A stretch of 4,457 nucleotides of DNA. Source: a virus. Its lineage: Duplodnaviria > Heunggongvirae > Uroviricota > Caudoviricetes. Positions 1-4,457 of this stretch are shown piece after piece (position 1 is the stretch's first letter; every line of letters begins with the position of its first letter). The translations under genes and the position numbers were made by a program. The DNA is taken from the IMG/VR virus record IMGVR_UViG_3300030444_000070; one strand, 5' to 3'. The notes under the pieces were generated by a model that was given only the letters and a program-made list of their open reading frames with translations, was not told the DNA's origin and did no database searches.

Positions 1-117
1 TACAAAACGCAATTGAAGAACGCGAGGCATCGTCTTAACGAGGCACCGAGGCGTCGCATTCTTCAGATGGTTCAACCCTTAAGTTAGCGCTTATGGGAAC
101 ACTCCCCGCCAGGTCTC

Positions 118-273
118 TTACCTTTCAGATTCGTAGGCTGTGAAGACAGTGACCTCCGTCTGGCCGGTTCGGATTCGTACCTCGCAGAGGTCTTTCCTCG
201 TTACCAGTGCCGTCACAATGACGGTTAAACAGATGACGATCAGAGCGATTAACATCGCTTTTTGCTGCTTCAT
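118..273 (-). CDS. hok: Hok/Gef-family type I toxin, 51 aa (MKQQKAMLIALIVICLTVIVTALVTRKDLCEVRIRTGQTEVTVFTAYESER)
   Basis: Own translation of the minus strand: ATG at 273..271, TAA at 120..118. The ORF is below the six-frame track size cutoff. SD-like CAAGGAGAAG lies 6 nt upstream of the ATG, as in R1 hok. The protein has the Hok/Gef hallmarks: single N-terminal TM helix, LVTRKDLCE motif, C-terminal FTAYE. It most resembles Gef/HokC and RelF/HokD from memory; the exact paralog is not assigned. Confidence 0.85.
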   Translation of the reverse strand: MKQQKAMLIALIVICLTVIVTALVTRKDLCEVRIRTGQTEVTVFTAYESER

Positions 274-331
274 AGCCTGCTTCTCCTTGACCTTTTGGTC
301 GGTAAGAGGCTAATCTACGTATGCTAAGCAT
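125..331 (-). CDS. mok: Mok-like overlapping reading frame (modulator of killing), 68 aa, coupling hok translation
   Basis: ORF-track frame 125..331 overlaps hok in a different frame and ends 7 nt before the hok stop, as mok does in hok/sok loci. GAGG lies 9 nt upstream of its ATG. The protein itself is low-complexity, which is typical for Mok. Confidence 0.5.
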   Translation of the reverse strand: MLSIRRLASYRPKGQGEAGYEAAKSDVNRSDRHLFNRHCDGTGNEERPLRGTNPNRPDGGHCLHSLRI

Positions 332-385
332 AGATATGGCCTCAGATTAATGTTAAGCGTCTTGCAGGACGCGTAATGTTATCTG
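321..385 (+). ncRNA. sok: Predicted Sok-like antisense RNA covering the mok translation initiation region
   Basis: Plus-strand promoter candidate TTGACC (287..292), 16-nt spacer, GCTAAT (309..314) inside the mok 5' end puts the start near 321. The transcript would be antisense to the mok SD and start codon. A GC hairpin GCGTC-TTGCAG-GACGC (357..372) followed by a U-rich tract gives a ~64-nt RNA. Boundaries are approximate. Confidence 0.35.
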
Positions 386-440
386 GGGCTTTCTTCTATC
401 TGCTTTTCGGGTCATGCCTGAAGCAGATAGCCTCAAGCAC

Positions 441-480
441 CCGCAACGATTGTATCAATGTCTGGCTTTTTTTCTATAGA
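441..480 (-). promoter_or_regulatory. Predicted hok mRNA promoter (extended -10 TGaTACAAT) and transcript start
   Basis: Minus strand reads CATTGATACAAT (rc of 449..460) with a TG extension. About 7 nt downstream the transcript would begin GGTGCTTGAGGCTATCTGC, which closely resembles the 5' end of R1 hok mRNA (GGCGCTTGAGGCTTTCTGCC, recalled from memory). A 10-bp inverted repeat CTATCTGCTT / AAGCAGATAG (396..405 and 421..430) would form a 5' leader hairpin. Confidence 0.35.
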
Positions 481-700
481 AATCACCTGGAAGGGTGAAT
501 ATCCACATCAGAAGAAATGTTGCAGCAAACATGATCCCTAATGGCCAGACCGCGCCAAAGAAAATCCATACTAAGATCTCCTCTGCTCGTTCTTTGCGGT
601 CGATATCGACAAGCATTTTTCGGCTGATCATGTATACACAGAAGCCAATACAAACATATCCTGCAAAAGCGATCGCTAACTGTAAAAAATCAGATTGCAT
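455..700 (-). CDS. Small membrane protein of unknown function, 81 aa, two predicted TM segments
   Basis: Track ORF 455..781. I prefer the internal ATG at 700..698 because GAGG lies 6 nt upstream; the 781 start has no SD and would overlap the repL stop. Two hydrophobic stretches (FLQLAIAFAGYVCIGFCVYMI and ILVWIFFGAVWPLGIMFAATFLLMWIF) are separated by a charged loop, and the C-terminus is basic. No family recognised. Confidence 0.5.
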   Translation of the reverse strand: MQSDFLQLAIAFAGYVCIGFCVYMISRKMLVDIDRKERAEEILVWIFFGAVWPLGIMFAATFLLMWIFTLPGDFYRKKARH

Positions 701-750
701 CTCCGACCTCAAACTGAAAACGCCAGGTGACTCCAGATTAGAGCAATCTA

Positions 751-1596
751 TCACCCCCTGAATCCTGCCGGTATACCCCATTTTTCGTTATCTTTATTTT
801 TGGCTAAAACCGCATTAAGAGCTTCGTTTACCGTCATGCAATGCGGTAGATTATCGAAGTTTGATATCCCGCCAATATCAGGCGAACGCTTGTTCTTCAG
901 GTAAGCATATTTCCGCGCAGCCGCCTCTACTTTCTGCTTGAACTCATGTTTTTGAGCGCGTTTTTTGGATAACCGCAGATTGTCAGCCTTTGCTTTTGCC
1001 TCAGCGATCCATGAAGTCAATTTTTTGAGTCTGGTCGTTCCGGCACCGCCGGAAACTGATCTTTTTGTTTTTTTAACTTGTGACTTCTTATTCTTTATTG
1101 CCACGTCATCCTGACAGGGGGAGGGGGTATCATTTTGACATGGGGGTGTGGATAAAAAATCAAATAAAGCCAATGTCTTAGCGAGAACAGCTTTAACCTT
1201 GGTTGCGGCTGAAGAGATCTTTAATTTGCTTTCAATCAGCGCGTTTTTAGCGTGTTGTGCGAAGGCCAAAAAGGATGGTGTAAACCGGTACAGGTTAGCG
1301 CGGCGTTCACGGTGATCGCCGATAACAATCTCTACCGACAGGATTCCTTTGTTTACAGCTTCACGGAATGCGCGAACGACGGTTGATTGGCTATAACCAG
1401 TTTCTGCCGCGATCATGCGGTGAGGCTTGTGAATGAAGTATTCACTGGTTGTTGCCGCGAGATTTGCACATTGCGACAGGATATGCCCGGCGCTACGGGA
1501 TAGACCGGAGTGTGTTACAAAGCAGGCCAATTCATAGCCAGAAAAAGTAAAATCGCTCATCGTTATACAGCTCAGGAAAGTGACTTTAGCCAGCAT
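751..1596 (-). CDS. repL: RepL-like lytic replication initiator, 281 aa, winged-HTH (RMIAAETGYSQSTVVRAFREAVNKGIL), lysine-rich C-terminal half
   Basis: Long ORF immediately downstream of kilA with a 29-bp gap. The order (operator, kilA, repL) and the size (281 aa, matching my recollection of P1 RepL) fit the P1 lytic replicon. HTH motif seen directly in the translation. The start could instead be the second Met at 1560; neither has a strong SD. Confidence 0.8.
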   Translation of the reverse strand: MLAKVTFLSCITMSDFTFSGYELACFVTHSGLSRSAGHILSQCANLAATTSEYFIHKPHRMIAAETGYSQSTVVRAFREAVNKGILSVEIVIGDHRERRANLYRFTPSFLAFAQHAKNALIESKLKISSAATKVKAVLAKTLALFDFLSTPPCQNDTPSPCQDDVAIKNKKSQVKKTKRSVSGGAGTTRLKKLTSWIAEAKAKADNLRLSKKRAQKHEFKQKVEAAARKYAYLKNKRSPDIGGISNFDNLPHCMTVNEALNAVLAKNKDNEKWGIPAGFRG

Positions 1597-1625
1597 TACA
1601 ATGCTGGTGGTTCTTACTACGTCTG

Positions 1626-2426
1626 TTAGCGCGTAGCCGCGACAGGTACCAGCACACCAGCATCAAGCAATCGCTTCATTAGCCACTGCTGACCTTTGCC
1701 GGTTATACGAGTCGTGAAAGAAATCCTGCTTCCGTTGCTTGTATCGATCACGGTTTCTTTGAGGGTGAAGTACCCACGGGATATGTATTCTTGTTTGGGG
1801 ACGTTCCTGCGTTCATCGGTTGCGATCAGAATTCCGTTATCACGCAACCAGGTGAAGAGATAGTTTTGGCCCAGGCCGAGCACTTTGGCATAGTTGCCGA
1901 TTAGAACCCCGCTGGCGGTAGCAACGCGTTCGGCGAATTCGACTTTAGGCGCATCCATAAGCATTTTTTGCTCCAGCCGTTGCTTTTGCTCTGCCAGGTC
2001 GGCAGCCAAACGGAGAGCTTCAGGGAGACTCTGCGGAATAGCAGGTTGCAATCTTCCGGCTCGATAGTCGATAAATGTCTGGTTTACCTTCAGCCGAAAC
2101 GCGGGAGAAATCCAGCCTGCGTACTCCACAGCGAGCAATTCATGGGCAAACGTACCGCCGCCACGGCCTTCGAACGAAACTATGCAATTCTGCATAGTTT
2201 CTTTTTCAAGCTCTTCGATGAGCTGTTTGGCTGACAGCGTTCTTAGCCATTGAGCTGGCGCTTTATGGGCACCGAGTCCGCTCGCTCTGTGTAGAGCATT
2301 AAGGTTGTAACGGCCAGCGCGGTCGGTCGTAATTTCAACACCACAAATAACAGGCAGAGTGGTTGAAGGATCGACATTTTGATGAAGGTTTGATATATTC
2401 ATATCCGCATTGAATGTTTGTTGCAT
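1626..2426 (-). CDS. kilA: KilA protein, 266 aa: N-terminal KilA-N DNA-binding domain plus C-terminal KilAC/ANT domain
   Basis: Track ORF with GGAG 7-8 nt upstream of the ATG. The N-terminus (VICGVEITTDRAGRYNLNALHRASG...APAQWLRT) looks like KilA-N. The C-terminal ~130 aa are clearly homologous to the C-terminus of the neighbouring ant product. The size agrees with my recollection of P1 KilA (266 aa). Confidence 0.85.
   Translation of the reverse strand: MQQTFNADMNISNLHQNVDPSTTLPVICGVEITTDRAGRYNLNALHRASGLGAHKAPAQWLRTLSAKQLIEELEKETMQNCIVSFEGRGGGTFAHELLAVEYAGWISPAFRLKVNQTFIDYRAGRLQPAIPQSLPEALRLAADLAEQKQRLEQKMLMDAPKVEFAERVATASGVLIGNYAKVLGLGQNYLFTWLRDNGILIATDERRNVPKQEYISRGYFTLKETVIDTSNGSRISFTTRITGKGQQWLMKRLLDAGVLVPVAATR
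2371..2399 (+). promoter_or_regulatory. Plus-strand antisense promoter (P53as-like): TCGACA, 17 nt, TGaTATATT
   Basis: -35 TCGACA at 2371..2376, 17-nt spacer, -10 TATATT at 2394..2399 with a TG extension at 2391..2392. It sits inside the first codons of kilA and points away from the gene toward the operator region. Confidence 0.45.
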
Positions 2427-2495
2427 TTTTTCTCCAAATTTGCATCAACCTTCAATCACCAGCTCGAAATGGTGATTCTTTGCACTTAGAAAACG

Positions 2496-2512
2496 AAATT
2501 TATTAGAGCAAA
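2496..2512 (-). promoter_or_regulatory. C1-type repressor operator (Op53-like) upstream of kilA
   Basis: Minus-strand 17-mer TTTGCTCTAATAAATTT matches the asymmetric P1 C1 operator consensus ATTGCTCTAATAAATTT (recalled) at 16/17. It lies 70-86 bp upstream of the kilA ATG. A second copy is at 4166..4182. Confidence 0.55.
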
Positions 2513-2554
2513 TTTTTCTGACTCGATCCAGATCGGGTTGGTCGATCTGCTCAG

Positions 2555-2592
2555 AAACCTGCCAGTTTGCTGGCAGGTTTTTTCTTTTGTTA
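2555..2592 (+). terminator. Rho-independent terminator: stem CCTGCCAG / CTGGCAGG, loop TTTG, then TTTTTTCTTTTGT
   Basis: Perfect 8-bp stem (extendable by AAA/TTT pairs) with the T-tract on the plus strand. On the minus strand it is preceded by an A-tract and followed by GTTTCTGAG, so it may also act weakly after ant. The T-tract overlaps the ant stop codon. Confidence 0.6.
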
Positions 2593-3384
2593 ACCTATTG
2601 CTACTGGTTTTAACAAACCAGCATCAAGTAGCTTGCGAGTTAACCACTGCTGGCCTTTACCCGTTAATTGGGGCGTCAGCCGTATCTGGTAGCCATTTTC
2701 ATCATCCAGCACCACTTCTTTCACCGTGAAATACCCGGCGTTAATGTACTGCTGGCGCGGTACGTTTTTGCGCGCACCAAAAGCCATGAGAATGCCGTTC
2801 TGGCGCAACCATGAGAAAAGGGCGTTTTGCTTAAGTCCAACGACCTTTGCAAAGTTCCCGATCAGGATTCCATTAGCCGCTGATACCCGGTCGGCAAAAT
2901 CGACTTTAGGGGCTGCGGCCACCAGCTGTTGTTCCAACTGCATTTTCTGTTCTGCCAACTCGGCAGCCAGGCGTAGAGCGTCTGGTAATGTTTGGGGGAT
3001 CGATGGGGCAGGGGAGTTTGCCTGCTGCAATTCTTCCAGTTTGTCGATCAGCGAACGGCGGACTGCTTTTGACTCGCGCGCGGCGACTCGCAGGGCTTGT
3101 TTGTAGGTCATGGTTATGACAACCATAGGCGTACCGCCACCTGGCGGCACGGTTGCACTTTTTGTGTAACCGTCCTCACCTTCTAATTCGTCGAGTATTT
3201 TTTTGATGAATTTGTTGTTCCGAACCTCTGGTTCCCCACATAACTTACGCGCTTCATTGACCATCTTTAACAGCGTCTGGCTGTCGATTGTGTCTCCAGT
3301 GTTGGAGATAACATTCACAGCTGGTGATGGCGTAGCTGAAGCAACAGATGCTGGTTTTTTAACATTCAAATTATTACTGGTCAT
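2590..3384 (-). CDS. ant2: Antirepressor Ant2, 264 aa: in-frame internal initiation product of the same ORF
   Basis: In-frame ATG at 3384..3382 is preceded by a strong SD, AAGGAGG, with an 8-nt spacer. P1 ant is known to produce Ant1 and Ant2 from two in-frame starts (recalled). Whether both are used here is an inference. Confidence 0.45.
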   Translation of the reverse strand: MTSNNLNVKKPASVASATPSPAVNVISNTGDTIDSQTLLKMVNEARKLCGEPEVRNNKFIKKILDELEGEDGYTKSATVPPGGGTPMVVITMTYKQALRVAARESKAVRRSLIDKLEELQQANSPAPSIPQTLPDALRLAAELAEQKMQLEQQLVAAAPKVDFADRVSAANGILIGNFAKVVGLKQNALFSWLRQNGILMAFGARKNVPRQQYINAGYFTVKEVVLDDENGYQIRLTPQLTGKGQQWLTRKLLDAGLLKPVAIG

Positions 3385-3633
3385 TCTATGTGCCTCCTTT
3401 CTCATTTCTGCTGCCACCGTTGCGTAACGTAGACGTCCTTGTTCAATCAAATAATCCCTGATCTCGGCTATCAGTAGCCTGTTGATCACAGCCTTATCTG
3501 TTCGGGTATAAAAACGTCTGGTTATCATGAAATAGTTGGCAATTGCGCCGGGGATCTCCCGTGTCGGCATACAGGCAGTATGCAGGGCGATCGCTTCGGC
3601 TATGTCATTACGGGTGACGAGAGGTTTTTTCAT
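2590..3633 (-). CDS. ant1: Antirepressor Ant1, 347 aa, with C-terminal KilAC/ANT domain
   Basis: Track ORF. The ATG at 3633 overlaps the stop of the upstream icd-like ORF as ATGA, and AGGGGG lies 4 nt upstream. The C-terminal ~130 aa (LPDALRLAAELAEQK...GKGQQWL) are paralogous to the KilA C-terminus. The middle region loosely resembles Rha-like regulators. Confidence 0.8.
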   Translation of the reverse strand: MKKPLVTRNDIAEAIALHTACMPTREIPGAIANYFMITRRFYTRTDKAVINRLLIAEIRDYLIEQGRLRYATVAAEMRKEAHRMTSNNLNVKKPASVASATPSPAVNVISNTGDTIDSQTLLKMVNEARKLCGEPEVRNNKFIKKILDELEGEDGYTKSATVPPGGGTPMVVITMTYKQALRVAARESKAVRRSLIDKLEELQQANSPAPSIPQTLPDALRLAAELAEQKMQLEQQLVAAAPKVDFADRVSAANGILIGNFAKVVGLKQNALFSWLRQNGILMAFGARKNVPRQQYINAGYFTVKEVVLDDENGYQIRLTPQLTGKGQQWLTRKLLDAGLLKPVAIG

Positions 3634-3851
3634 AAAACCCCCTGAACGTCGGCAGAGAAGGGGAGGTTCCAGTAACTAAGTGAATTGCGCGAGTTAGTTG
3701 AAAAACGGGCAGTAAAAATGCAGGGGCCATCAGGCAATTGAGAGCGTGCTTCGTCTTCTGTTGCTGCGATGACGAAGTGATAGTGGTGTTTTTTGCAGGA
3801 ATAGAAACGCCAGATGAATTCTTGGCGTGCGCAAGGATTGGCATTAACCAT
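3630..3851 (-). CDS. icd: Icd-like small protein, 73 aa, translationally coupled to ant
   Basis: Track ORF (MVNANPCARQEFIWRFYSCKKHHYHF...). GAGG lies 8 nt upstream of the ATG. Its TGA overlaps the ant ATG (ATGA). Size (73 aa) and position between the c4-like region and ant match P1 icd. The protein sequence itself is not independently recognised. Confidence 0.55.
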   Translation of the reverse strand: MVNANPCARQEFIWRFYSCKKHHYHFVIAATEDEARSQLPDGPCIFTARFSTNSRNSLSYWNLPFSADVQGVL

Positions 3852-3907
3852 AGTTACGGCCTCACAATCAGGTTTAACAACCTGCTACCCGCTGCTAAAC
3901 AGGTGGC

Positions 3908-3990
3908 AGGACGTGACGGGGTTAGCAGACTGGCGATTGTGAAACCAGCAGGCCGAAGCCTCCCCATCACGCCCCACCATAATTTGGGCG
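3908..3990 (-). ncRNA. c4: Predicted c4-like antisense repressor RNA
   Basis: On the minus strand, UCACAAUC (rc of 3935..3942) and CUGCUAAC (rc of 3922..3929) lie 6 nt apart. Each is complementary to two target pairs on the same transcript: upstream GUUUAGCAG (rc 4061..4069) and GAUUGUG (rc 4047..4053), and downstream GUUUAGCAG (rc 3892..3900) and GAUUGUGA (rc 3862..3869), the last overlapping the icd SD GUGAGG. Local hairpins place the first motif in a loop. The RNA ends are not determinable from sequence; boundaries are approximate. Confidence 0.35.
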
Positions 3991-4098
3991 TAACGCGGTT
4001 TTACGGACACAAAAATACCGCAATATCGGATATCTGCGGCTGTCCGCACAATCATTCAGGCTGCTAAACCCGGTCGCAGAATTTGCTACGACGGCGAA

Positions 4099-4127
4099 AC
4101 TATAAGCCTGAACGATTAAAAGGTCAA
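4099..4127 (-). promoter_or_regulatory. Sigma70 promoter for the c4-icd-ant operon (P51-like): TTGACC, 17 nt, TATAGT
   Basis: Minus strand: -35 TTGACC (rc of 4122..4127), exact 17-nt spacer, -10 TATAGT (rc of 4099..4104). Predicted start near 4092, upstream of both upstream target motifs. Confidence 0.5.
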
Positions 4128-4165
4128 TATGATGCAAAAAGATAGCATTCGCGACTTAAAAATAC

Positions 4166-4182
4166 AAATTTATTAGAGCAGA
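4166..4182 (-). promoter_or_regulatory. C1-type repressor operator (Op51-like) upstream of the immunity-I operon promoter
   Basis: Minus-strand 17-mer TCTGCTCTAATAAATTT matches the recalled P1 C1 operator consensus at 15/17. It is nearly identical to the 2496..2512 copy, and the flanks are also conserved (~27/33 over 2483..2515 versus 4153..4185). Confidence 0.5.
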
Positions 4183-4457
4183 TTAGTGTCGTGCAATAGA
4201 TATATTATTTGTGATGAAAAATAATGCAGAGGGATATTGTAACTTTAAGATGGATATCAATAGTCGATACATAAATTAAGTTAGCAATAAACTATTAACT
4301 TAAGAAATAATGCAGATGGTGAACTTGTCTCTGACTTTTCAGCTATACACAATAAGTTAGGGATAGCTTATAAAGGTAATGACTCCAACTTATTGATAGT
4401 GTTTTATGTTCAGATAATGCCCGATGACCTTGTCATGCAGCTCCACCGATTTTGAGA

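What the first reader, a model, noticed from the sequence alone, without database searches (positions are those of the whole stretch)
118..480. Complete hok/mok/sok-type toxin-antitoxin locus next to a P1-like lytic replicon
A Gef/RelF-like Hok toxin, an overlapping mok frame, a predicted Sok promoter and terminator, and a hok leader resembling R1 hok mRNA are all present. From memory, reference P1 carries phd-doc as its addiction module and has no hok locus in this position, so this looks like accessory cargo on a P1-like element. It could act in plasmid-prophage maintenance or as an abortive-infection module.
Basis: partly seen in the sequence, partly recalled or inferred. Interest (0 to 1): 0.55.

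Follow-up and report, generated by a model that had tools for sequence, protein, structure and literature searches.

The report
IS186-interrupted hok/sok on P1-like plasmid
This is a genuine hok/mok/sok toxin–antitoxin locus of a kind already annotated in most P1-like phage-plasmids (though absent from reference P1), and here its 3' control element has been cut off by an IS186 insertion, as at the hokC/gef locus of E. coli K-12, so it is ordinary and probably crippled.

Summary
On the minus strand, 118-480 holds a 51-aa Hok toxin (Pfam HOK_GEF, E 2e-22; 48/51 identical to K-12 HokD), an overlapping 68-codon mok frame, the hok mRNA leader (Rfam RF01794, 114 bits), a hok promoter, and on the plus strand a Sok gene. 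The Sok gene lines up with the annotated sokW of phage 933W and sokC of K-12.

Reference P1 and P7 lack the locus: they carry pmgF-rlfB-rlfA between bplB and repL. It is not unusual cargo, however. In PLSDB, 284 records have repL-ORF81-hok, against 100 with the reference rlfA-repL junction. The gene is routinely annotated hokD or MokW.

The locus is not complete. Window 1-94 is the end of IS186/IS421 (94/94 identical to K-12 IS186A), inserted 23 nt after the hok stop in the GC-rich 3' hairpin. That removes the fold-back-inhibition (fbi) element and the terminator found in uninterrupted relatives. K-12 hokC/IS186A has the same insertion site and orientation. Folding predicts loss of the 5'-3' fold-back. 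Close relatives (RCS47, SJ46) have lost the hok ORF.

Verdict: a known system, probably impaired for post-segregational killing. Low interest.

The parts
1..94 (+). Right end of an IS186/IS421 (IS4-family) insertion sequence. The 23-bp terminal inverted repeat is at 72-94. The transposase gene lies upstream, outside the window, on the + strand and convergent with hok.
   Evidence: 94/94 identical to K-12 IS186A nt 1248-1341. In the 99.9%-identical plasmid p1108-IncY the full IS, with an IS421-family transposase CDS and terminal inverted repeats CATAAGCGCTAACTTAAGGGTTG, sits between bplB and hok.
95..117 (-). Residual hok 3' UTR: one arm of the GC-rich hairpin (GGCGGGGAGUGUUCCC on the hok strand) that is the IS target and duplication site. 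The other arm, the fbi element and the terminator are beyond the IS, outside the window.
   Evidence: Alignment to uninterrupted MH422554 and 933W diverges exactly at 94/95. The same target hairpin is used in K-12 hokC/IS186A and, with the IS in the opposite orientation and a perfect 10-bp duplication, in L005.
118..273 (-). hok toxin gene, 51 aa, HokD/HokW lineage.
   Evidence: Pfam HOK_GEF E=2.4e-22. PHROG 251 'MokW-like host killing' E=5e-32. 48/51 identical to K-12 HokD, 47/51 to 933W HokW, and identical to the Hok of MH422554.
125..331 (-). mok reading frame, 68 codons, overlapping hok out of frame. Its SD (GAGG) and AUG lie inside the Sok-complementary region.
   Evidence: ORF list. Upstream sequence CUGAGGCCAUAUCU-AUG. 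PHROG 37205 E=8e-21.
268..442 (-). hok mRNA 5' leader, from the predicted +1 (G at 442; tac element GGGUGCUUGAGG at 431-442) to the hok AUG.
   Evidence: Rfam RF01794 full-length match, 113.9 bits, E=2.6e-26. The 5' 12 nt pair with the fbi element in the MFE fold of the uninterrupted relative.
449..476 (-). hok promoter-like site (TAGAAA, 16-nt spacer, extended -10 TG-TACAAT), 7 nt upstream of the predicted +1.
   Evidence: Consensus scan. The -10 aligns with TAGAAT of the 933W hokW locus. Prediction only.
287..316 (+). Sok promoter (-35 TTGACC at 287-292, 18-nt spacer, -10 TAATCT at 311-316).
   Evidence: Read directly from the sequence. It sits at the position that precedes the annotated start of sokW and sokC. 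It was not called by the strict consensus scan.
323..396 (+). Sok antisense RNA (about 71-77 nt): single-stranded 5' part, then a long hairpin and a U-rich tail. It is fully complementary to the mok translation-initiation region of hok mRNA.
   Evidence: Coordinates transferred from annotated sokW (933W) and sokC (K-12). Fold of -31.8 kcal/mol, z = -5.3, 0 of 200 shuffles as stable.
455..781 (-). Small membrane-protein ORF of unknown function (108 aa from the first ATG; 81 aa as annotated by NCBI, 455-700). It travels with hok/sok in the cassette that replaces rlfA/rlfB/pmgF.
   Evidence: PHROG 3772 (unknown function) E=1.7e-53. No Pfam match above the curated cut-off and no NCBIfam or PADLOC hit. 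Annotated as a hypothetical protein in p1108-IncY.
731..747 (-). Remnant of the P1 C1 operator Op55 (ATTGCTCTAAT|CTGGAG). The right-hand breakpoint of the cassette relative to reference P1 lies inside it, at 737.
   Evidence: Pattern scan and BLAST boundaries. P1 annotation of Orlf/Op55 directly after repL.

Best explanation
Window 95-480 is a hok/mok/sok type I toxin-antitoxin locus of the HokD/HokW lineage.

**Where it sits.** With a small membrane-protein ORF it forms a 0.7-kb cassette. In most P1-like (IncY) phage-plasmids this cassette occupies the bplB-repL interval, where reference P1 has pmgF-rlfB-rlfA.

**How the intact form should work (R1 hok/sok paradigm; established knowledge, not tested here).**
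- A stable hok mRNA starts near 442 and ends at the shared bplB terminator.
- It is kept inert because its 5' tac element (GGGUGCUUGAGG) pairs with a 3' fbi element (CCUCAAUGCACCC).
- Slow 3' trimming removes the fbi element and exposes the mok ribosome-binding site.
- The unstable Sok RNA (about 323-396, + strand) binds there and triggers decay.
- When the plasmid is lost, Sok disappears, mok and hok are translated, and Hok depolarises the membrane.

**What differs in this window.** An IS186/IS421 element sits 23 nt after the hok stop, in the GC-rich 3' hairpin that matches this IS's preferred target type. The fbi element and terminator are therefore 1.3 kb away, and hok transcripts must run into the IS.

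**Inferred consequence.**
- The mRNA is never locked in the inert form, so it is open to Sok from the start and is degraded.
- No long-lived toxin-mRNA reservoir builds up.
- Post-segregational killing, and any abortive-infection activity that depends on that reservoir, is weakened or lost.
- The toxin gene, mok, sok and both promoters remain intact.

This is the same state as K-12 hokC (gef)/IS186A.

**Shown:** identity of all parts, the IS junction, the distribution among relatives, and the predicted folds.
**Inferred:** the functional impairment.
For: - Parts identified by Pfam, Rfam and PHROG matches and by alignment to annotated sokW and sokC.
- IS end: 94/94 identity to IS186A. The full IS421 is seen at this site in the 99.9%-identical p1108-IncY.
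- The uninterrupted relative MH422554 continues with the second hairpin arm, CCUCAAUGCACCC and the bplB terminator. In its MFE fold nt 1-12 pair with that element. Summed pair probability of the 5' 12 nt with the 3' region is 11.9.
- In the IS-interrupted transcript the same sum is 1.9, and the 5' end forms a local hairpin instead.
- K-12 hokC/IS186A has the IS in the same orientation in the same hairpin, 19 nt after the stop, with the fbi-like CUUCAACGCACCC left on the far side.
- Literature: hokA, hokC and hokE of K-12 are regarded as inactivated by insertion elements (PMC7232551 and PMC12214031, both citing Pedersen & Gerdes 1999). IS186 is thought to disrupt the hokC fbi element and mRNA processing (PMC3562002).
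- Distribution in PLSDB: 284 records with repL-ORF81-hok, 100 with the reference rlfA-repL junction, 198 with an uninterrupted hok 3' end, 41 with the IS end plus ORF81.
Against: - No experiment bears on this particular locus, and the folding is in silico.
- The 3' end of the transcript inside the IS is unknown. PMC3562002 reports that K-12 gef mRNA ends about 200 nt into IS186 and is still regulated by its antisense RNA, so the locus is expressed and not dead.
- The IS end contains a segment (window 40-53, CGCCUCGGUGCCUC on the hok strand) that could pair with tac at -17.9 kcal/mol, against -21.0 for the native fbi element. Some fold-back is therefore not excluded.
- The IS186-hok junction is in 422 PLSDB records with the hok ORF intact in those inspected. 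That is compatible with retained function as well as with neutrality.
Confidence: 0.7

Rival explanations
1. The locus is fully functional despite the IS. It acts as a second addiction module of the plasmid-prophage (besides phd-doc) or as an abortive-infection module. The fold-back lock would be either dispensable or supplied by the IS end.
For: - The hok ORF, mok, sok, both promoters and the leader structure are intact and near-identical to uninterrupted relatives.
- The IS-hok junction persists in 422 PLSDB records.
- An fbi-like segment in the IS end pairs with tac at -17.9 kcal/mol, 65 nt after the stop; the native element lies 47 nt after the stop.
- K-12 gef with the same IS is reported as still transcribed and regulated by its antisense RNA (PMC3562002).
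Against: - The IS segment's pairing energy is reached by 7% of shuffles and 3% of natural 117-nt windows. It is also buried in a strong local IS hairpin.
- In ensemble folding the 5' end hardly pairs with the 3' region (1.9 against 11.9).
- The equivalent K-12 loci are regarded in the literature as inactivated (PMC7232551, PMC12214031).
- From prior knowledge of the R1 system (not tested here), a long-lived inert mRNA pool is what makes post-segregational killing possible.
Confidence: 0.2
2. The locus is a decaying remnant with no remaining role. The IS insertion is the first step of erosion and the intact ORF merely has not yet been hit.
For: - Close P1-like relatives have gone further. RCS47, SJ46 and vB_EcoM-673R5 keep only window 305-800 (ORF81, hok leader, Sok body) and have another gene in place of hok.
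- In P1-derived segments inside plasmids typed IncHI1B, the neighbouring ORF81 is cut by IS30 or IS3.
- The window itself is flanked by two IS ends, IS186 at 1-94 and IS1 at 4375-4457.
Against: - No point mutation distinguishes the toxin from that of uninterrupted relatives: it is identical to MH422554 Hok.
- Sok and its promoter are intact. They must remain so as long as hok can be expressed, so the pair is still a working toxin-antidote unit at minimum.
Confidence: 0.1

Closest known systems
hokC (gef)/mokC/sokC locus with IS186A of E. coli K-12 MG1655
   Same: - Same gene layout: hok, overlapping mok, antisense sok, and a tac-type 5' end GGGUGCUUGAGG.
- Same IS (window 1-94 is 100% identical to IS186A), in the same orientation.
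- Same insertion point in the GGCGGGGA-N-UCCCCGCC hairpin, about 20 nt after the stop.
- The fbi-like element is left on the far side of the IS.
   Different: - The toxin here is of the HokD/HokW lineage (41/51 identical to HokC).
- mok is out of frame with hok here, whereas annotated mokC is an in-frame extension.
- The location is a P1-like plasmid-prophage rather than the chromosome.
hokW/mokW/sokW of Stx phage 933W and the hok loci of Rac-type and lambdoid prophages
   Same: 87-93% nucleotide identity over window 101-454, covering hok, mok, sok and the leader, with the same element order. The toxin is 47/51 identical to HokW.
   Different: Those loci are uninterrupted and keep the fbi element (CCUCAACGCACCC). 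Their flanking genes are lambdoid. A 1-nt difference puts mokW in frame with hokW.
hok/sok (parB) of plasmid R1, the mechanistic paradigm
   Same: Same family by Pfam HOK_GEF and Rfam RF01794. Same logic of overlapping mok, cis-antisense Sok against the mok initiation region, and 5'-3' fold-back in the uninterrupted relative.
   Different: The sequence is distant. I did not align R1 directly; my comparison with R1 promoter and fbi sequences rests on memory. Here the fbi element is physically separated by an IS.
hokD (relF) of K-12, in the Qin prophage
   Same: Closest named toxin: 48/51 aa and 147/156 nt identical. This is why PGAP labels the plasmid gene hokD.
   Different: K-12 hokD keeps the 3' fbi-like element but has lost the whole upstream leader, mok and sok, which are replaced by relBE. 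That is the mirror image of the defect seen here.

Membership tests
[quoted passage not shown] | Small (about 50 aa) hydrophobic Hok toxin with the HOK_GEF domain | tested here: met
   Pfam PF01848 E=2.4e-22, 78.7 bits against a cut-off of 22. 48/51 identical to K-12 HokD. NCBIfam Hok models hit only below their curated cut-offs (49.5 against 73).
[quoted passage not shown] | Overlapping mok reading frame with its own Shine-Dalgarno sequence upstream of hok | tested here: met
   ORF 125-331(-), 68 codons, GAGG 8 nt before the AUG.
[quoted passage not shown] | Structured hok mRNA leader | tested here: met
   Rfam RF01794 full-length match at 268-442(-), 113.9 bits against a gathering score of 59.
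[quoted passage not shown] | cis-encoded antisense Sok RNA with its own promoter and terminator hairpin, complementary to the mok initiation region | tested here: met
   Positional homology to annotated sokW and sokC. TTGACC-18-TAATCT promoter. Hairpin of -31.8 kcal/mol, z = -5.3, with a U-rich tail. Expression was not tested.
[quoted passage not shown] | 3' fold-back-inhibition (fbi) element pairing with the 5' tac element in one contiguous mRNA | tested here: not met
   tac is present (431-442), but the sequence after 95 is IS186. The fbi element and terminator of uninterrupted relatives are absent from the contiguous transcript. Predicted 5'-3' pairing falls from 11.9 to 1.9.
[quoted passage not shown] | Toxicity of Hok and post-segregational killing | not testable with these tools
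   Only indirect: K-12 HokD and most tested Hok homologues are toxic on overexpression (bioRxiv 10.1101/2025.08.07.668861).
IS186/IS421 (IS4 family) insertion | Terminal inverted repeat and identity to a reference element | tested here: met
   Window 1-94 is 94/94 identical to K-12 IS186A nt 1248-1341. The 23-bp inverted repeat CATAAGCGCTAACTTAAGGGTTG is at both ends of the full copy in p1108-IncY.
IS186/IS421 (IS4 family) insertion | Target-site duplication in a G-run/C-run target | tested here: inconclusive
   Only one flank is in the window. In p1108-IncY the two copies differ by 1 nt (GGATCTCTCC and GGATCACTCC). In L005 (opposite orientation) and in K-12 hokC the 10-bp duplication is perfect.
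P1-type immI region and lytic replicon | c4 RNA, icd, ant1/ant2, kilA and repL in P1 order with C1 operators | tested here: met
   96.2% identity to NC_005856 over window 737-4180. Rfam C4 at 69.6 bits and c4-a1b1 at 54.6 bits. Operator-like sites at 2496-2512 and 4166-4182.

The most novel reading that the evidence does not exclude
The recurrent IS186/IS421 insertion in the hok 3' hairpin is not simply inactivating. It occurs in the same place in K-12 hokC, in this P1-like lineage, and in the opposite orientation in another P1-derived segment. The IS end would carry a surrogate fbi-like segment (window 40-53) that partly restores the fold-back lock. Alternatively, convergent transposase transcription would add a second antisense control. 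Either way the IS would rewire the toxin-antitoxin module rather than kill it, and it would gain a safe, addictive landing site.
Probability: 0.08. Interest if true: 0.45.

Novelty: already known. Interest (0 to 1): 0.15.

Why it matters
There is little new biology here. The points of practical value are these:

- Reference P1 is not representative of P1-like phage-plasmids at the bplB-repL interval. Most of them carry a hok/sok cassette there in addition to phd-doc, so annotation and stability models of these elements, which are increasingly noted as carriers of resistance genes, should take it into account.
- An annotated "hokD" ORF does not mean a working addiction module. A sizeable sublineage has the IS186 insertion that removes the fbi element and terminator, and others have lost hok altogether.
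- The hok 3' hairpin is a repeated IS186/IS421 target on plasmids as well as on the K-12 chromosome.

Tried and rejected
- **PADLOC defence models:** no hit for Hok or ORF81.
- **NCBIfam:** Hok models matched only below their curated cut-offs, and nothing matched mok or ORF81.
- **Pfam:** nothing above the curated cut-off for ORF81 (a weak B12D hit, below cut-off) and nothing for mok.
- **Second promoter-like site:** the site at 356-327(-) and the weak terminator-like site at 498-483(-) occur at the frequency expected from shuffles and were not used.
- **Surrogate fbi in the IS end:** the best duplex was -17.9 kcal/mol against -21.0 for the native element. 7% of shuffles and 3% of natural windows reach that value, and the segment is buried in an IS hairpin. 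I treated it as probably chance.
- **Exact source of the window:** the best plasmids match 1-4374 at 99.9%, but none in PLSDB, RefSeq E. coli or the phage set has the IS1 junction at 4375.
- **Is the IS186-hok junction in unrelated conjugative plasmids?** The three sampled records from the junction set (L010-L012) were all P1-derived bplB-IS421-hokD segments in plasmids typed IncHI1B. I therefore dropped the idea of exchange with IncF hok loci.
- **Literature on hok in P1-like elements:** I found only passing mentions, such as type I and II TA modules on pUTAK-22.3-P1 (PMC13596339). The p1108-IncY paper lists IS186B but does not discuss hok on that plasmid (PMC10101111).
- **Pedersen & Gerdes 1999** could not be read directly and is cited through PMC7232551 and PMC12214031.
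- **R1 hok/sok** was not aligned directly.

Full report
**1. What is in the window.**
The window is the immI / lytic-replicon segment of a P1-like plasmid-prophage, all on the minus strand:
- c4 RNA (3899-3984; Rfam C4, 69.6 bits) and its a1/b1 targets
- icd (3630-3851)
- ant1/ant2 (2590-3633)
- kilA (1626-2426)
- repL (751-1596)

Over 737-4180 the window is 96.2% identical to reference P1, NC_005856. The finding concerns what lies downstream of repL.

**2. Check of the observation.**
- *hok.* ORF 118-273(-) encodes a 51-aa protein that matches Pfam HOK_GEF (E=2.4e-22) and PHROG 251, 'MokW-like host killing'. It is 48/51 identical to K-12 HokD (RelF), 47/51 to HokW of phage 933W and 41/51 to HokC.
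- *mok.* A 68-codon frame (125-331) overlaps hok out of frame and has GAGG 8 nt before its AUG.
- *Leader.* The stretch 268-442(-) is a full-length match to Rfam RF01794 (113.9 bits, gathering score 59, E=2.6e-26). This model lies on the hok-sense strand and ends at the hok AUG, so it describes the hok mRNA leader.
- *hok promoter.* A promoter-like site (TAGAAA, 16 nt, TG-TACAAT; 476-449) sits 7 nt upstream of the G at 442 that begins the match.
- *Sok.* On the plus strand, TTGACC (287-292), an 18-nt spacer and TAATCT (311-316) precede the position where sokW (933W) and sokC (K-12) are annotated to start. The corresponding RNA, from 323 to about 393-399, folds into a long hairpin with a U-rich tail (-31.8 kcal/mol, z = -5.3). 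It is complementary to the mok SD and AUG.

These matches are far beyond chance.

**3.
- *The IS.* Homology to other hok loci and to uninterrupted P1-like phages stops at 95-104. Window 1-94 is 94/94 identical to nt 1248-1341 of K-12 IS186A. In p1108-IncY, which is 99.9% identical to window 1-4374, a complete IS421/IS186 element lies between bplB and hok. It has a transposase CDS and 23-bp terminal repeats CATAAGCGCTAACTTAAGGGTTG. The insertion point is 23 nt after the hok stop, inside a GC-rich hairpin (GGUGGGGAGAGAUCCCCGCC in the uninterrupted form).
- *What the uninterrupted form has.* In MH422554 the hok-sense strand continues with the second hairpin arm. Then comes CCUCAAUGCACCC, which is complementary to the 5' end GGGUGCUUGAGG. 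Last comes the bidirectional bplB terminator.
- *Folding.* In the 434-nt full-length transcript of MH422554, nt 1-12 pair with that 3' element in the MFE structure. This is the tac-fbi fold-back that defines inert full-length hok mRNA in the R1 paradigm. The summed pair probability of nt 1-12 with the region 3' of the stop is 11.9 in the uninterrupted transcript. It is 1.9 in the window transcript extended 200 nt into the IS, where the 5' end forms a local hairpin instead.

The locus is therefore not complete.

**4. The same configuration is already known.**
- In K-12 MG1655, IS186A sits in the same orientation in the equivalent hairpin (GGCGGGGATCACTCCCCGCC). It lies 19 nt after the hokC (gef) stop and has a perfect 10-bp duplication. 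The fbi-like CUUCAACGCACCC is stranded on the far side.
- The literature treats hokA, hokC and hokE of K-12 as inactivated by such insertion elements (PMC7232551 and PMC12214031, citing Pedersen & Gerdes 1999).
- PMC3562002 says IS186 is thought to disrupt the hokC fbi element and mRNA processing. It adds that gef is still transcribed, still regulated by its antisense RNA, and ends about 200 nt into the IS.
- In another P1-derived segment (L005, inside an IncHI1B-typed plasmid) IS421 is inserted at the very same position in the opposite orientation, with a perfect GGATCTCTCC duplication. The hairpin is therefore a repeated target, and at least two independent insertions exist among P1-derived elements.

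**5. Distribution.**
- *The cassette.* Relative to reference P1, a 693-bp cassette (fbi, hok/sok, ORF81) replaces 1826 bp carrying pmgF-rlfB-rlfA. The left breakpoint is just after the bplB terminator. The right one lies inside the C1 operator Op55 that follows repL.
- *Counts in PLSDB (records, not lineages; redundancy not removed).*
  - 284 records carry repL-ORF81-hok at 80% coverage or more.
  - 100 carry the reference rlfA-repL junction.
  - A composite query places an uninterrupted hok 3' end next to ORF81 in 198 records.
  - The matching composite places the IS186 end next to ORF81 in 41 records.
  - The IS186-hok junction itself (window 1-130) is in 422 records.
- *Sampled junction records.* The three sampled beyond the intact P1-like plasmids were all bplB-IS421-hokD segments in IncHI1B-typed plasmids. 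In the two where a further IS is annotated, ORF81 is cut by it.
- *Phage records.* Deposited P1-like phages MH422554, MH445380/1, phi456 and Ro157c2YLVW have the hok cassette. RCS47, SJ46 and vB_EcoM-673R5 retain only window 305-800, that is ORF81, the hok leader and the Sok body. They have another ORF in place of hok, and the breakpoint falls between the Sok -35 and -10.
- *Annotation.* The gene is routinely annotated hokD or MokW.

**6. Mechanism.**
For the uninterrupted cassette I adopt the R1 hok/sok mechanism (established knowledge; homology shown here, function not):
- a stable, folded-back, inert mRNA;
- slow 3' trimming that frees tac and opens the mok initiation region;
- Sok binding and RNase III decay while the plasmid is present;
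- mok-coupled Hok translation and membrane damage after plasmid loss.

For this window I infer impairment. Without the fbi element the mRNA should be Sok-accessible from the outset, so no reservoir forms and post-segregational killing is weak or absent. The pair remains a silent toxin-antidote unit. Confidence is about 0.7 for the whole statement. It is near-certain for the identity of the locus and of the IS junction.

**7. Rivals.**
- *Full function retained (0.2).* The IS end contains CGCCUCGGUGCCUC (window 40-53), able to pair with tac at -17.9 kcal/mol against -21.0 for the native fbi element. This value is reached by 7% of shuffles and 3% of natural windows, and the segment is buried in an IS hairpin.
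- *Functionless remnant (0.1).* This is supported by erosion in relatives. Against it, the toxin is identical to that of uninterrupted relatives, and sok must stay intact while hok is expressible.

**8. Novelty and score.**
The system, its presence on P1-like elements and the IS186-type interruption are all already known or already annotated. Interest is 0.15.

Noticed in passing
window 4375-4457: Left end of an IS1 element (82/83 identical to K-12 IS1A nt 1-83), inserted upstream of the c4 promoter region. None of the near-identical plasmids in PLSDB, the RefSeq E. coli set or the phage set has this junction; their homology stops at 4374. The window's source is therefore a variant not present in those collections.
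   Followed up: partly
window 4181-4374: AT-rich stretch between the C1 operator Op51-like site (4166-4182) and the IS1 end. It is shared with many P1-like plasmids but not with reference P1, whose sim genes follow at this point.
   Followed up: no
window 131-135 (Tyr47 codon of hok, 133-135): The Tyr47 codon UAC sits in a CCUACGAAU context, which is the TadA A-to-I editing motif (UACG). Editing of the equivalent Tyr codon to Cys is reported for hokC, hokD and hokE, and at another position for hokB (PMC12214031). A second TACGA occurs at 175-179.
   Followed up: partly
window 731-747: Half of the P1 C1 operator Op55 (ATTGCTCTAAT followed by unrelated sequence). The breakpoint of the hok cassette relative to reference P1 lies inside this operator, so the C1-controlled rlf promoter region of P1 is absent.
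   Followed up: partly
window 455-781 (-): Small predicted membrane protein (81 aa as annotated by NCBI; 108 aa from an upstream ATG that overlaps the end of repL). It belongs to PHROG 3772 (unknown function, E=1.7e-53) and always accompanies hok/sok in the P1-like cassette. The hok promoter overlaps its last codons.
   Followed up: partly
L007 (RCS47) 900-1600; also SJ46 and vB_EcoM-673R5: These P1-like phages keep the hok 5' leader and the Sok body (window 305-800) but lack the hok ORF and the Sok -35. A 198-aa ORF (labelled Lom outer-membrane protein in SJ46) takes its place, leaving an orphan sok/leader remnant.
   Followed up: partly
L002 6741-6779 and 8073-8111; window 95-110: The two copies of the IS target duplication are not identical in p1108-IncY (GGATCTCTCC on the left, GGATCACTCC on the right). 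The right copy equals the K-12 hokC duplication. The window has GGAACACTCC. Whether this reflects loop polymorphism, later mutation or recombination between IS186-flanked hok loci is unexplained.
   Followed up: no
window 4011-4092 (-): Sub-threshold Rfam match to isrK (43.7 bits against a gathering score of 50), overlapping the c4-a1b1 target region. It probably reflects the known relatedness of isrK-type RNAs to the P1/P7 c4 region rather than a separate gene.
   Followed up: no
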